Virus record (IMG/VR): IMGVR_UViG_2718218139_000010
Coordinates: 1-35,239 of that record
Strand: one strand, 5' to 3'
Origin: a virus
Taxonomy: Duplodnaviria > Heunggongvirae > Uroviricota > Caudoviricetes
DNA: 35,239 nt
Within the stretch, counting starts at the first letter, position 1, and each line of letters opens with the position of its first letter. Positions 21,001 through 24,000 of this stretch are shown one piece after another. Position numbers: made by a program.

Positions 21001-24000
21001 CCGAGTTCCGGTACCAGAACAGGTCGAAGCAATACCCGCATGTTACCTCCAGATGCGTTGCTGGAATGTGCGGGATGGACGTGGTGGGCGTTCAGAGTAA
21101 GGAAGCCTGACGGAAATTATCCAGTGTCGGAAGTCAAGACTGAGGTCTTTCCTGACCTCGCGTCCGCGCCTGCGATAACACTGAATCAGCCATTCGGCCT
21201 GTTCTTCAGTGCACGGATCATGCTGATACCAGTCAGTTTTAAAGACGTGTGAACGCCGCCCGTACCGGATGGCAGGGTCGGCTGAGTTATCAGAATTGTG
21301 ATGTTTGGTATTGTGCGCCATCGGTTTTCTCTGCTGGCGCAGCAGGTGCCAGTTGTTCAGGCTGGCGTGCGGCAATATTGTCTCTGATTTCTGTTGTCGT
21401 CAACAGGCAACGTGCTATCATCGAATGGTGTTCTATCCTACTCCGTGAGGTTTACCATGCGTACAACCCAACAATTCAGCATTACATTAACTAACGAAAT
21501 GGCTGACATGGTGCGCGCCCGTGTGGCTTCCGGTGCCTATGCTTCAGAAAGCGAGGTCATTCGTGAAGGGCTTCGCGCACTGAATGAGCGCGATAAAGCA
21601 ATCGAAGCGTGGTTAACGCATTCAGCCGCCCCCTCTCTTGATTCTATCCGCGAAAATCCAAACAACGGACGCTCCATTTCACAGGTTCGCGCCGCGATTC
21701 GATCCGGGAAGTAATCTGCATGACATATGAAGTCATCATTACTCCTGAGGCCGAACAACAAATAATCAACCTGCACAAATATATAACGGAGAAAGCAGGG
21801 AACGTCATTGCTGACAATTATGCCAATGCGCTTCTTGATTATCTTGATGGGTTTTCTACATTCCCGCATCGGGGCAATAAACGCGATGATATTCGCCAGG
21901 GGATGCGGGTAACTCATTTCCGCCACAGAACGATTATTGCTTTTGCCGTTGATGGCAGAAAAGTCTTTATTGTCGGTATCTATCATGGTGGGCAAAGTTA
22001 TGAAACCGATTTCTTATAAACTTTTACCCACATCATTCCGGTGTTAGAATAAACCGTCCGCCCCTCTCTTACTGGCGGATTCGTAGGCTATATCAATCAA
22101 AGATCCCGGCTCATGTTTGTGTCGGGATCTTTTTCGGCGATTTATCCCCAGAGGCAAATCGAATACACCACCAGCGCCACCGCCATTGCAATTCCTACCG
22201 TTGTGAATGCTTCAGGCCAGGTCATCGCAAAACATCCTCCGCGCTTATCAGTTCGTTCCGCTTCAGGTAGTCCATCGCCTTCTCCGGTAATTTGCAGTCC
22301 GGCCAGGCTTTTTTCAACTGGCTGACCAGCCGTTTAACCCACATTGTTAATTCGCTAACCTGATTGCCGGATGCTGGTGGAGCAGCATATAACGGCACCC
22401 ACTTTGGCGCTTTATCCCCGACCGAACGCTGATACCAGTCACCCGGTTTGTATTCATAAAACTCACCAACCGGTTCTGCTTCCAGCGATGCCAGAGCAAT
22501 TTTGAATAACTCACCCTCTACTCGTGCCAACCCTGAATTGGGGTGGCATTTCGCAATCGCTATTTTTAATTTGGCCTCTTCGATTAATTGCTCTTTGGTT
22601 AATTCAGTCATTTTTCATTACCGCCCTTTCGGGCAGCCTCCTGATGATTTGAGGGTGCAGAAATCCCTCCGGTTAAGGATTAAATTTTTAACAGCGCTAA
22701 ATTTATTTATTCAGTTCTGGATTTTGTCGCCCTGCGTATCCGCGCTTTCGCGTTACGCTCAATCTGAATTAACTTTTCTATATTTTTCCGCCTTTCCTGT
22801 TCCTCCTGGCGCAATAGCCTTACATCATCTGCCAGTCTGGTTTCTCTTTTCGCCACTGAGAGCATCCAGTCAAACGGCTCCACAACTGCACCGCAGATTT
22901 TACAGCGGACCTGACGCTCTTTTTCGTCAACCCGGACAGAAGCGTGATGGCAGTATGGTCTTTCCGATGGCTCATAAAGGAAAGTAACCTGATTACGTGG
23001 GTCATCCTCTTTTACCGGAAATAAAACAATATTACTTAACTCATCTTCTGGTTTTATTTCCACGTTAGCCTCCTTTAATACGAATCCCTGCAACACGTAG
23101 TGAGTGCTCTAAGTCAGTCCGATGAATCCAGTTGCCATTTTCTTTAGGTATCATCACATGTCGCTCATCAGCATTTATCGGGTGTCCATATCGAAGGTCG
23201 AAGCCAGCAGGTAACTGGATTTCCCTCGCCTCCAGTTCTGCAATGCGCTTGTCTTTAGCTTCCAGCTTATCCAGTATCGCCAGCGCAACCTTTGGATTAA
23301 AGGCAGCAATAAATTCAGCGTTTGCGTAAGCCTGAGCATCTGTTTCAACCAGGCAGTTAACATGACATTCTGCAATCACGCCACCAGGTTCTCCTTTCCA
23401 TTTTTGACAAACAAAAACTCCTGTTAAATTGCCATTCTGGTTAACAGACGTATGCCCCACGATGTAGCTTCCTTTAGTTGCTTTCTCTGCCGCCTCTCGC
23501 AGTGCCTGACAGTTAATTTCGCTCACTATTTACCTCCTGCAACGCTACCCGGTACGCCTTCTTTATCCACGCTGTACTGCCATATAACTTCGTCTTCATA
23601 AAAAACACACCTGCACGGCTCGCCGATATCCCCGGACAGGCTAACAGCACTGCATCCACCACACGGTTATGCTTCCGGAACTCCATTACAGTACTGCTGA
23701 TAACCACCTGCCCCACCGGGCCGTAATCCTGATACAGGATTTTCACGCAGACACCCTCCTGTCGAAATAAACGTAGTTATTCACTGTGCGCAACGGCATT
23801 CCGAATTTTCTGGCGATTTCCCTCCGGGACACACCGCGCTGATGCAGCTGTCGCGCCAGTTCAATATCACTCTGCGGATATTTTGTTGGCTGGTGAAAAT
23901 CACCCCGCAACATCAAACTGATACCCAGTTCCCGCGCTTTCGTTCTGACAGCATCTCCAGTGCGACCAGTCAGCCTCCCGATGCTTTCGACTGTCATCGT

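What the first reader, a model, noticed from the sequence alone, without database searches (positions are those of the whole stretch)
21457..22225. ParD/ParE module in the nin-like region, beside a 129-aa gene coupled to a 27-aa hydrophobic peptide
A canonical two-gene ParD/ParE pair with its own terminator occupies the position where Qin carries relBE. On the opposite strand, the 129-aa ORF ends in ATGA overlapping the start of a 27-aa single-helix peptide. That architecture resembles small membrane toxin pairs but is not one I recognise.
Basis: partly seen in the sequence, partly recalled or inferred. Interest (0 to 1): 0.45.

Follow-up and report, generated by a model that had tools for sequence, protein, structure and literature searches.

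The report
ParDE cassette beside unnamed phage micro-protein
The interval holds an ordinary, already-annotated ParD/ParE toxin-antitoxin cassette, and next to it a real but uncharacterised 27-residue membrane peptide gene that is shared by many E. coli phages and is not a dedicated partner of the 129-aa protein.

Summary

**ParDE.** ParD/ParE is a standard type II cassette. ParD is 100% identical to a RefSeq protein, and the cassette occurs in 370 of 5426 complete E. coli genomes. It is a roughly 770-bp insert, in reverse orientation, at the slot before DUF968-RusA-Q. That slot holds relBE-hokD in Qin and hokD in other relatives.

**The 27-codon ORF.** This is the interesting part. It belongs to a conserved family with the pattern M-x-W-P-E/D-A-F/I, one hydrophobic helix, then RWG.
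- It is present in 1632 of 5426 E. coli genomes and in 94 phage records, including 933W and VT2-Sakai.
- Variation is concentrated at third codon positions.
- Homology between mosaic relatives breaks at its stop codon.
- It nearly always starts on the stop codon of the gene before it, with a Shine-Dalgarno (SD) sequence in that gene's last codons.
- It has no Pfam, PHROG or NCBIfam family and no paper, only a few unnamed calls in GenBank submissions and RefSeq.

**Not a pair.** The upstream gene differs widely between copies (27 protein clusters), so a 129-aa/27-aa toxin pair is not supported.

The peptide's function is unknown. I infer a single-span inner-membrane micro-protein made with the early genes.

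The parts
21394..21421 (+). Sigma-70-like promoter candidate for parDE (TTGTCG-16-TATCAT, with TG before the -10 hexamer)
   Evidence: Consensus scan. It is not enriched over shuffles and is only suggestive. It lies inside the roughly 770-bp cassette that is shared with phage ArgO145 from window position 21374 onward.
21457..21714 (+). parD, a ribbon-helix-helix (RHH) antitoxin of 85 aa
   Evidence: PF03693 at 32.1 bits (cut-off 21); TIGR02606 at 53.8 bits (cut-off 46.2); phrog_6494 at 1.7e-56. PDB relatives are ParD1 3kxe_C, then 7b22, 6x0a and 5ceg. It is 85/85 identical to the ParD of L001, annotated WP_001260977.1.
21720..22019 (+). parE, a RelE/ParE-superfamily toxin of 99 aa
   Evidence: PF05016 at 41.1 bits (cut-off 23); phrog_5232 at 2.9e-43. 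Weak PDB match to 6x0a_A 'plasmid stabilization system' at E 0.008. It is 97/99 identical to the ParE of L001, annotated WP_001297793.1.
22099..22137 (.). Hairpin terminator of parDE (stem AAAGATCCCGGC / GTCGGGATCTTT, then T-run). Read on the minus strand it also follows the 27-codon gene.
   Evidence: Fold (z = -3.1 for the intergenic stretch); coordinates. The sequence travels with the ParDE cassette, not with the peptide gene: it is shared only by the ParDE-bearing loci L001 and L002 in alignment A1.
22142..22225 (-). 27-codon gene for a single-helix hydrophobic peptide, MTWPEAFTTVGIAMAVALVVYSICLWG. It belongs to the M-x-W-P-E/D-A-F/I ... RWG family. This copy carries a private R25L change.
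22236..22240 (-). GGAGG Shine-Dalgarno sequence for the 27-codon gene, inside the last codons (A-E-D) of the 129-aa gene and 10 nt before the ATG
   Evidence: Read directly from the sequence. It is invariant in alignment A1. An equivalent SD is present in the other upstream contexts; for example, AGGAGGTGA is formed by the DUF551 end ...PQEVNQ*.
22222..22611 (-). 129-aa mosaic early accessory gene. It has an N-terminal helical module ending ...IALASLEAEP, a variable middle, and a conserved C-terminal tail ...DYLKRNELISAEDVLR.
   Evidence: No Pfam hit. phrog_660 at 8e-44. 523 homologues of 73-223 aa, named only 'hypothetical', 'prophage protein' or 'DUF551 domain-containing'. Alignment A3. The AF2 model has mean pLDDT 55.6, and only helices 6-44 are moderately confident.

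Best explanation
Two unrelated things abut at a mosaic junction in the nin-like region of a defective Rac/Qin-type lambdoid prophage. The early-right operon runs on the minus strand: repressor side, replication genes, Ead/Ea22, Zn-ribbon protein, 129-aa gene, 27-aa gene, then [ParDE on the plus strand], hypothetical gene, DUF968, RusA and Q.

**(1) ParDE cassette, about 21373-22141**
- It is a self-contained type II toxin-antitoxin insert (a 'moron').
- It has a candidate promoter, an RHH antitoxin gene, a toxin gene 5 nt downstream and its own hairpin terminator.
- It sits in reverse orientation at a slot that holds hok/sok or relBE-hokD in relatives.
- By inference from the family, ParD binds and neutralises ParE and represses the promoter. 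ParE poisons DNA gyrase when ParD is lost. The cassette would then stabilise the prophage and possibly act against other phages.

**(2) The last two cistrons of an early accessory block, on the minus strand**
- The 129-aa gene is a mosaic Eaa-like protein of unknown function.
- The 27-codon gene is a genuine protein-coding gene of an uncharacterised family found in many E. coli phages.
- It appears to be translated by ribosomes that terminate on the upstream gene's TGA and restart on the overlapping ATG (ATGA), helped by an SD sequence written into the upstream gene's last codons.
- The product is inferred to be one transmembrane helix. It would have a T/S/N-W-P-E helix cap and aromatic residues at both ends (W3 and F7; Y21 and W26), a small-residue face (G11, A13, A15, A17), and a C-terminal Arg on the cytoplasmic side.
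- It is therefore inferred to be an inner-membrane micro-protein made with the early genes. It would act by helix-helix packing, either with a host membrane protein or with itself.
- It is an independent gene module, not a partner of the 129-aa protein.

**Shown versus inferred**
- Shown: the anatomy, family membership of ParD and ParE, conservation of the small ORF, its coding signature, its start-on-stop arrangement and its mosaic independence.
- Inferred: gyrase poisoning, membrane insertion and topology, time of expression, and any cellular target.
For: **ParDE**
- Family scores are above the curated cut-offs. PDB relatives are ParD and ParE proteins.
- ParD is identical and ParE near-identical to RefSeq-annotated ParD and ParE.
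- The cassette is present in 370 of 5426 genomes and is always annotated as ParD/ParE in the records listed.
- Cassette limits: homology of relatives without ParDE stops at about 21364-21372 on the left. On the right it resumes at 22141-22146, which is the stop codon of the small ORF. ArgO145 shares 21374 onward.
- The slot holds hokD in two relatives and relBE-hokD in Qin.

**Peptide: distribution**
- The ORF is intact in 6 of 6 aligned loci, with mostly synonymous changes.
- It is found in 94 phage records, 92 of them full-length.
- It is found in 1632 of 5426 complete E. coli genomes, at 3102 places and up to 7 per genome.

**Peptide: coding signature**
- Among 64 distinct 84-nt versions, entropy at codon positions 1/2/3 is 0.51/0.35/0.93 for codons 8-27, and pN/pS is 0.42.
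- R25 is conserved in 58 of 65 distinct versions.
- There are 22 downstream and 12 upstream flank types, and homology breaks within a few nt of the stop codon.
- Permuted-motif control: 12 hits, none of them a hydrophobic peptide. The real motif gives more than 120 hits, and 47 of 56 distinct peptides are 20-36 aa with a strongly hydrophobic stretch.

**Peptide: translational coupling**
- In the scan that did not force it, at most 2 of 120 stretches lack A as the fourth base.
- All 18 Ser codons at position 2 are AGY and none is TCN.
- The upstream stop is at +1 in 119 cases and at -2 in 26 of 146.
- An SD sequence is present in each main context.

**Peptide: other**
- The best 18-residue window has a mean Kyte-Doolittle hydropathy of 2.1-2.3.
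- No conserved RNA fold: -2.1 kcal/mol with no covariation.
Against: - No expression or membrane data for the peptide exist in anything I could search.
- The antisense frame whose wobble positions coincide gives the same pN/pS (0.40) and is open in 61 of 64 versions. The substitution pattern alone therefore does not pick the strand. The choice rests on the conserved start, stop and SD and on the breakpoints.
- The loci sampled are dominated by related E. coli prophages, so the counts are not independent events.
- The window's own copy has Leu in place of the conserved Arg25 and sits in an IS-ridden prophage, so this copy may be impaired.
- The SD spacing here (10 nt) is longer than optimal.
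- The parDE promoter is only a consensus match, and no operator repeat was found.
- The ParE match to solved structures is weak (E 0.008).
Confidence: 0.72

Rival explanations
1. The 129-aa protein and the 27-aa peptide are a two-component membrane toxin system, with the peptide as toxin and the 129-aa protein as its antidote or chaperone (or the reverse). They would be co-translated to keep a fixed ratio.
For: - ATGA coupling fixes co-expression.
- The peptide is hydrophobic and of toxin-like size.
- It sits in a toxin-antitoxin hot spot.
- 24 of 99 upstream proteins share the same C-terminal tail as the 129-aa protein, and 40 of 99 share its N-terminal motif.
Against: - The same peptide gene follows 27 clusters of upstream proteins with at least 12 different 3' ends. 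They include an enzyme fusion, a Zn-ribbon protein and a DUF669 protein.
- 22 of 99 upstream proteins have none of the shared motifs.
- In 933W the coupled gene is L0139. Its homologue in this window, at 22707-23096, is not the coupled gene.
- No toxin or antitoxin family match was found.
Confidence: 0.08
2. The peptide is a stand-alone membrane-damaging or host-killing factor, in the manner of type I toxins, holins or Kil. It would be made early in infection or induction, with no protein partner.
For: - Its size, hydrophobicity and small-residue helix face are compatible with oligomeric pores (sequence).
- It occurs in phages of different lifestyles: lambdoid, P1-like, and members of Vequintavirinae, which I understand to be lytic.
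- It is frequently adjacent to hok (44 of 108 IMG/VR loci).
Against: - No antisense RNA or fold-back control was found of the kind that restrains known type I toxins. There is no Rfam hit, no conserved structure, and no promoter-like site on the plus strand facing it other than the parDE transcript, which ends at the terminator.
- It has a strong SD and is coupled to an ordinary early gene.
- There are up to 7 copies per genome.
- There is no similarity to the Hok, Ldr, Ibs or TisB families.
- None of this excludes toxicity on overexpression.
Confidence: 0.18
3. The 27 codons are not translated. The sequence is conserved as a DNA or RNA element, such as a recombination linker at a mosaic boundary or part of a terminator or processing site. 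Alternatively, the real gene is the antisense ORF (22113-22325 on the plus strand).
For: - It lies exactly at a mosaic junction.
- It is often followed by hairpins.
- The antisense frame is open in 61 of 64 versions and has the same pN/pS.
- One phage record annotates an ORF on the opposite strand.
Against: - Three-base periodicity of variation is present.
- There is no conserved RNA structure.
- The conserved block begins at an ATG preceded by an SD and ends at a stop codon in every context, while the antisense ORF would start and end in non-homologous flanks.
- Diverged members in contigs of 40-66% GC keep the motif plus a hydrophobic helix, but not the DNA sequence.
- Length is held at 27 codons.
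Confidence: 0.06

Closest known systems
ParD/ParE type II toxin-antitoxin modules (RK2 parDE; Caulobacter ParD1-ParE1, PDB 3KXE; Vibrio ParD2, 7B22; 6X0A; 5CEG)
   Same: - An RHH antitoxin gene lies directly upstream of a RelE/ParE-fold toxin gene.
- Sizes are similar (85 and 99 aa).
- Pfam and TIGRFAM scores are above cut-off.
- ParD is identical and ParE near-identical to proteins RefSeq already names ParD and ParE.
   Different: - Only distant sequence similarity to the structurally solved members (E 4e-4 for ParD, 0.008 for ParE).
- It is carried as a reverse-oriented insert in a prophage nin region rather than on a plasmid.
- Activity was not tested.
relBE-hokD of the Qin prophage, and hokW/sokW of phage 933W
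   Same: They occupy the same genomic slot. That is just upstream of DUF968-(RusA)-Q in Qin and in two relatives, and directly after the MxWPEAF peptide gene in 933W and in a RefSeq E. coli prophage, FDAARGOS_946.
   Different: They belong to different toxin-antitoxin families and types. relBE and hok lie on the operon strand, whereas ParDE here is on the opposite strand.
Small single-span inner-membrane proteins of E. coli that bind larger membrane proteins (KdpF, AcrZ, MgtS, MgrB). From my own knowledge of these families.
   Same: They share size class, a single hydrophobic helix, aromatic or charged ends, and a small-residue face suited to helix packing. This is what the peptide most plausibly works like.
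   Different: There is no sequence relationship; the only KdpF hit is E 0.023 and below cut-off. The peptide is phage-borne and start-on-stop coupled to varied upstream genes, and no partner is known.
Start-on-stop (ATGA/TGATG) translational coupling, as in mok-hok or trp operon junctions. From my own knowledge; a review of termination-reinitiation coupling appears in the reference list seen.
   Same: A four-base ATGA overlap with an SD sequence inside the upstream gene's end.
   Different: Here the overlap is kept while the upstream gene is exchanged by recombination. The constraint even shapes codon choice at position 2 (only A-starting codons; Ser only as AGY).
exo-xis / Ea22-Eaa-DUF551 accessory genes of lambda and Stx phages
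   Same: The upstream genes belong to this mosaic set. The 129-aa protein shares its N-terminal and C-terminal modules with them. In Stx phages the peptide gene lies in the exo-xis region.
   Different: The two exo-xis papers I searched for the terms transmembrane, membrane, hydrophobic and downstream do not mention this small ORF. In the window the block sits in the early-right (pR) operon, not the early-left (pL) one.

Membership tests
ParD antitoxin (PF03693 / TIGR02606) | N-terminal ribbon-helix-helix domain that matches the family model above its curated cut-off | tested here: met
   PF03693 at 32.1 bits against 21; TIGR02606 at 53.8 bits against 46.2; residues 6-51. PDB ParD proteins are the best hits.
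ParD antitoxin (PF03693 / TIGR02606) | Encoded immediately upstream of, and co-oriented with, its cognate ParE toxin gene | tested here: met
   The parD stop is at 21714 and the parE ATG at 21720, on the same strand.
ParD antitoxin (PF03693 / TIGR02606) | Binds and neutralises ParE, and autoregulates the operon | not testable with these tools
   No inverted-repeat operator was found at 21370-21470. Biochemistry is needed.
ParE toxin (PF05016, RelE/ParE superfamily) | Full-length match to the ParE model above its curated cut-off | tested here: met
   41.1 bits against 23; residues 5-94 on model positions 1-89 of 89; phrog_5232 'toxin' at 2.9e-43.
ParE toxin (PF05016, RelE/ParE superfamily) | Inhibits DNA gyrase rather than cleaving mRNA as RelE does | not testable with these tools
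   Sequence alone does not separate the two activities.
Type I toxin-antitoxin (Hok/Gef and similar small membrane toxins) | Sequence membership of a known small-toxin family | tested here: not met
   No Pfam, NCBIfam, PHROG or PADLOC toxin hit for the 27-aa peptide or 17 relatives.
Type I toxin-antitoxin (Hok/Gef and similar small membrane toxins) | A cis- or trans-encoded antisense RNA antitoxin | tested here: not met
   No Rfam match at 21300-22700 even at E up to 1. No conserved RNA structure in the ORF. The downstream flank, where such an RNA gene would lie, differs between loci.
Type I toxin-antitoxin (Hok/Gef and similar small membrane toxins) | Toxic to the producing cell | not testable with these tools
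   An expression experiment is required.
Two-gene toxin/partner pair (129-aa with 27-aa) | The two genes co-occur and co-vary across genomes | tested here: not met
   27 clusters of upstream proteins and 12 types of upstream 3' end, giving 38 combinations of flanks. 22 of 99 upstream proteins share no motif with the 129-aa protein.
DUF551 / Ead-Ea22 family (for the 129-aa protein) | Match to PF04448 or PF13935 | tested here: not met
   No Pfam hit at E up to 0.01. It shares only N- and C-terminal modules with proteins that do carry DUF551.
MxWPEAF micro-protein family (defined here) | An ORF of 24-34 codons starting M-x-W-P-E/D-A-F/I, followed by a hydrophobic helix, and starting on or next to the upstream stop codon | tested here: met
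   The window copy is MTWPEAFTTVGIAMAVALVVYSICLWG, with an ATGA overlap and GGAGG 10 nt upstream. It differs from the consensus only at R25L.

The most novel reading that the evidence does not exclude
The MxWPEAF peptide is a widespread early-expressed phage membrane effector with a specific host target. Examples would be a transporter used for DNA entry (superinfection exclusion) or a membrane protease complex that feeds into the lysis-lysogeny decision. It would have been missed because it falls below gene-caller length limits.

Its presence in all major Stx phages and in about 30% of complete E. coli genomes would make it a common, unrecognised player in the biology of Stx and other lambdoid phages. 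The invariant N-terminal motif, seen also in phage contigs of 40-66% GC, would mark a broader family across Proteobacteria-infecting phages.
Probability: 0.3. Interest if true: 0.65.

Novelty: new member of a known kind. Interest (0 to 1): 0.42.

Why it matters
**ParDE.** The cassette adds nothing new, because it is already annotated in hundreds of genomes. It does illustrate that the slot before DUF968-Q in Rac/Qin-type prophages is a recurrent landing site for toxin-antitoxin modules (relBE-hokD, hok/sok, ParDE).

**The 27-codon gene.** This is the useful result.
- It is a well-conserved small gene present in 933W, VT2-Sakai and other Stx phages, in P1-like phage-plasmids, in some Vequintavirinae phages, and in about 30% of complete E. 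coli genomes.
- It is absent from the RefSeq annotation of every locus inspected.
- It has no Pfam, PHROG or NCBIfam family and no paper in the searchable library.
- It gives a concrete, cheap experimental target in the poorly understood early accessory (exo-xis/nin) regions.
- It is also a clean natural example of a start-on-stop junction that is preserved while the upstream gene is swapped by recombination.

Tried and rejected
- **Family libraries.** Pfam, NCBIfam, PHROGs and PADLOC gave only noise-level hydrophobic hits for the peptide and 17 relatives: KdpF, PetL, DUF883_C and phrog_4612 at E 0.02. N-terminally extended database forms also hit no PHROG for the peptide part.
- **Exhaustive phmmer.** A 30-aa window fragment searched against 1.84 billion representatives found only 20 proteins, all 29-87 aa. 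They are the same ORF with altered ends or AM-repeat expansions. No longer protein with a related domain was found.
- **PDB profile search.** Nothing relevant.
- **Literature.** 'MTWPEAF' and 'WPEAF' appear in no relevant paper. They are not in the supplements held for the Sakai small-gene Ribo-seq paper or the Enterobacteriaceae microproteome study. They are not mentioned in two exo-xis papers.
- **K-12 named homologue.** None in CPS-53 or Qin. Other K-12 prophages were not checked.
- **Paralogues lacking the motif.** None found in 1.34 Mb of fetched loci.
- **Structure of the 129-aa protein.** AF2 mean pLDDT is 55.6, too low for a fold search, so none was run.
- **RNA-element reading.** No Rfam hit and no consensus structure.
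- **Operator repeat at the parDE promoter.** None found.
- **Genome-collection scan.** A strict pattern gave only 7 hits. They were Escherichia or Shigella, two tiny contigs that are probably contamination, and long-ORF matches in a Streptomyces genome and a metagenome-assembled genome (MAG) that I take to be chance. It was too strict to define the taxonomic range.
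Full report
**Observation**

- The ORF list and sequence show ParD at 21457-21714 (+) and ParE at 21720-22019 (+).
- On the other strand there is a 129-aa ORF at 22222-22611 whose TGA overlaps, as ATGA, the ATG of a 27-aa ORF at 22142-22225. That ORF encodes MTWPEAFTTVGIAMAVALVVYSICLWG.
- Between parE and the small ORF, the RNA fold gives a 12-bp-stem hairpin at 22099-22132 followed by a T-run (coordinates).
- The simple terminator scan missed this hairpin. The same scan listed a promoter-like site at 21394-21421, although such sites are not enriched over shuffles.
- The description is therefore accurate.

**Setting**

- Pfam and the annotation of relatives show a lambdoid prophage of the Rac/Qin type whose early-right operon runs on the minus strand.
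- The order is: HTH repressor-like gene at 27216 (+), YdaT-like gene, DnaT-domain and lambda-P-like replication genes, DUF1627, Ead/Ea22 (23065-23526), a Zn-ribbon protein (22707-23096), the 129-aa gene, the 27-aa gene, then ParDE on the plus strand.
- After ParDE come a small hypothetical gene, DUF968 (19983-21041), RusA and antiterminator Q (18931-19626).
- 'nin-like region' is a fair label.
- IS copies, a truncated terminase and effector genes indicate a defective prophage.

**ParDE is ordinary**

- ParD exceeds the curated cut-offs of PF03693 and TIGR02606, and ParE exceeds that of PF05016. Both hit the PHROG antitoxin and toxin families at 1e-56 and 1e-43.
- The best solved relatives of ParD are ParD proteins (3kxe, 7b22, 6x0a and 5ceg). 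ParE weakly matches the toxin chain of 6x0a.
- ParD is 85/85 and ParE 97/99 identical to the genes that RefSeq annotates as 'ParD family antitoxin' and 'RelE/ParE family toxin' in strain T309.Ta3.
- The 702-bp module occurs in 370 of 5426 complete E. coli genomes, always on chromosomes, and carries those names in every record listed.

**ParDE is a discrete insert**

- Relatives that lack it lose homology with the window at about 21364-21372 on the DUF968 side.
- They regain it at 22141-22146, which is the stop codon of the small ORF.
- Phage ArgO145, which carries the module in a different place (near int), shares 21374 onward.

**The slot is a toxin-antitoxin hot spot**

- In K-12 Qin the order is relB-relE-hokD-rem-ydfU(DUF968)-ydfT(Q).
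- In O157:H7 Z910 and in strain BR1220, hokD sits at exactly the site that ParDE occupies here.

**The 129-aa protein**

- It has no Pfam family.
- It has 523 database relatives of 73-223 aa in Escherichia, Shigella and Salmonella. They are named only 'hypothetical', 'prophage protein' or, when a DUF551 domain is present, 'DUF551 domain-containing'.
- The alignment shows a conserved N-terminal module ending IALASLEAEP, a freely variable middle, and a conserved 45-residue tail ending DYLKRNGLISVEDVLR.
- AlphaFold2 gives only a moderately confident N-terminal helical hairpin (mean pLDDT 55.6), so I did not run a fold search.
- It is one of the mosaic Eaa/Ea22-type early accessory proteins, and its function is unknown.

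**The 27-codon ORF is a real, conserved gene**

- *First alignment.* In six loci with three different downstream contexts the ORF is intact, most differences are synonymous, and homology ends right after its stop codon.
- *Phage records.* tblastn finds it in 94 records, 92 of them full-length. They include 933W, VT2-Sakai, Stx2 II, BP-4795, ArgO145, the Vequintavirinae phage TH18, and the P1-like phage SJ46 as a partial (70%) match that proves to be a 24-aa member.
- *Complete genomes.* blastn finds it in 1632 of 5426 complete E. coli genomes at 3102 places. That is up to seven per genome, with 163 places on plasmids of phage-plasmid size.
- *Coding signature.* Across 64 distinct 84-nt versions, variability is concentrated at third codon positions (entropy 0.51/0.35/0.93 for codons 8-27) and pN/pS is 0.42.
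- *Strand ambiguity.* The antisense frame that shares wobble positions gives the same ratio, so that statistic does not choose the strand. What does choose it is that the conserved block starts at an ATG preceded by an SD sequence and ends at a stop codon in every one of 12 upstream and 22 downstream contexts, with breakpoints within a few bases of the stop.
- *RNA-level conservation.* RNAalifold finds no conserved structure and Rfam finds nothing.
- *Chance control.* The codon-permuted motif M-x-F-A-E-P-W occurs 12 times in IMG/VR and never heads a short hydrophobic ORF.
- *Diverged members.* Some come from contigs of 40-66% GC and keep the motif and a helix but not the DNA sequence. The family probably extends beyond enterobacterial phages.

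**Coupling to the upstream gene**

- In a scan that did not force it, at most 2 of 120 stretches lack A as the fourth base.
- Residue 2 varies (T, N, S, I), yet every codon starts with A, and all 18 Ser codons are AGY and none TCN.
- T, S and N are also good helix N-cap residues, so part of this pattern may be structural. The Ser codon choice argues for a nucleotide-level constraint.
- The upstream gene's stop lies at +1 (ATGA) in 119 of 146 cases and at -2 (TGATGA/TAATGA) in 26.
- Each main upstream end carries an SD sequence. The DUF551 end ...PQEVNQ* spells AGGAGGTGA 7 nt before the ATG. The window's ...AEDVLR* spells GGAGG 10 nt before it.

**Annotation status**

- No separate CDS for it appears in any RefSeq or phage locus I inspected.
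- An exact look-up shows the 27-aa consensus was called in a few GenBank submissions as 'bacteriophage protein' or 'hypothetical protein' (79 contigs). N-terminally extended 40-45-aa versions also exist, including one RefSeq WP entry.
- There is no Pfam, NCBIfam or PHROG family.
- No paper in the searchable library contains the sequence. That includes the held supplements of two small-ORF surveys and two exo-xis papers.

**Not a pair**

- The genes coupled to the peptide fall into 27 clusters.
- Of the 99 upstream proteins, 42 end in DUF551, 24 carry the tail of the 129-aa protein, 40 carry its N-terminal motif and 22 carry none of these.
- Pfam on representatives finds a dATP/dGTP pyrophosphohydrolase-DUF551 fusion, plain DUF551 and DUF669.
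- In 933W the coupled gene is L0139, a Zn-ribbon coiled-coil protein. Its homologue in the window (27% identity, E 7e-13) is the gene before the 129-aa gene, not the coupled one.
- The peptide gene is therefore an independent module.

**Likely mode of action (inferred)**

- The sequence reads as one transmembrane helix.
  - It has a T/S/N-W-P-E cap and aromatic residues at both interfaces.
  - It has a G11/A13/A15/A17 small-residue face.
  - Arg25, conserved in 58 of 65 distinct versions, lies at the C-terminal end. The positive-inside rule then predicts N-terminus out and C-terminus in.
- No promoter-like site precedes it on its own strand. It should therefore be made with the early operon on infection or induction.
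- I consider binding to a membrane protein, or self-association, the most likely mode. A membrane-damaging role cannot be excluded.
- The window's copy carries a private R25L change, and no identical 90-nt copy exists among the complete genomes. It may be weakened.

**Association with toxin-antitoxin modules**

- In the IMG/VR sample, 44 of 108 copies are followed within 900 nt by a Hok-like gene on the same strand, and 9 by this ParE on the opposite strand.
- All three further ParDE loci I checked have the peptide gene abutting the cassette, although the gene coupled to it differs.
- Because many of these loci are related prophages, I treat this as a shared mosaic junction, not as evidence of a functional link.

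**Verdict**

- The ParDE half is already known.
- The peptide half is a genuine, undescribed small-gene family of a familiar general kind.
- The proposed toxin-pair reading is not supported.
- Interest is moderate. It rests on how widespread and overlooked the gene is, not on any demonstrated new mechanism.

Noticed in passing
window 17840-18095: Rfam matches above gathering score to AgvB (anti-GcvB sRNA, 17840-17901 +, 91.7 bits) and STnc100 (17902-18095 -, 143 bits). They lie between Q and a NanS-p-like esterase gene (15842-17692 -; DUF1737 + SASA + DUF6645). From memory, that position resembles the one stx genes occupy in Stx phages. No tRNA genes were found anywhere in the window.
   Followed up: no
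window 29411-29462 (+): DicF antisense sRNA match (55.9 bits against a gathering score of 48), next to a RecE-like exonuclease gene at 30116-32554 (+).
   Followed up: no
window 1241-3613 (-): A 790-aa protein with pentapeptide repeats plus SopA central and catalytic domains, which suggests an NleL/SopA-type HECT-like E3 ligase effector carried by the prophage.
   Followed up: no
window 5889-8305; 13405-14561; 32879-34035: A three-ORF set of 141, 116 and 537 aa, which I take to be an IS66-type element, plus two copies of a two-ORF element (100 aa + 272 aa) that looks IS3-like. None was run against a family library. A terminase ATPase fragment at 9123-10127 is confirmed by Pfam. The prophage looks defective.
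   Followed up: no
L173 (E. coli O157:H7 Z910) 2989-3093 (-): The slot between an Eaa-like gene and hokD has no MxWPEAF gene here. Instead it holds a different annotated 34-aa hydrophobic protein, WP_001278460.1 (MSDDISLVMEGALAVIAVVGVYCLVVFLMERLGN). This is a possible positional analogue.
   Followed up: partly
proteins P0155, P0157, P0158 and P0159: Some database versions of the peptide carry 2-8 extra residues from expansion of the six-base GCAATG/GCGGTG repeat (...GIAMAMAMAMAMAVAL...). This lengthens the hydrophobic helix in steps of two residues.
   Followed up: no
L009, L011, L151 and many IMG/VR loci: The last codons of DUF551 genes (CCG CAG GAG GTG AAT CAA TGA, encoding PQEVNQ*) spell a near-perfect extended Shine-Dalgarno sequence for the peptide gene. 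Part of the conservation of the DUF551 C-terminus may therefore be a nucleotide-level constraint.
   Followed up: partly
L152 (Shigella phage POCJ13) 1501-1581: This copy of the peptide gene has TAG in place of Trp3, so it is a pseudogene. The record annotates a small ORF on the opposite strand there.
   Followed up: partly
window 22612-22706 (-): The 95-nt gap before the 129-aa gene contains GGAGG about 28 nt upstream of the ATG, followed by a GCCC-GAAA-GGGC hairpin. Such a hairpin could bring the SD closer to the start. This was read from the sequence only.
   Followed up: no
L159 (E. coli 2013C-3492) 1518-2495: A ParD gene 87% identical at the DNA level is followed not by ParE but by an unrelated 90-aa hypothetical gene and a HigA-family antitoxin gene. 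This is a swapped-toxin variant of the cassette.
   Followed up: no
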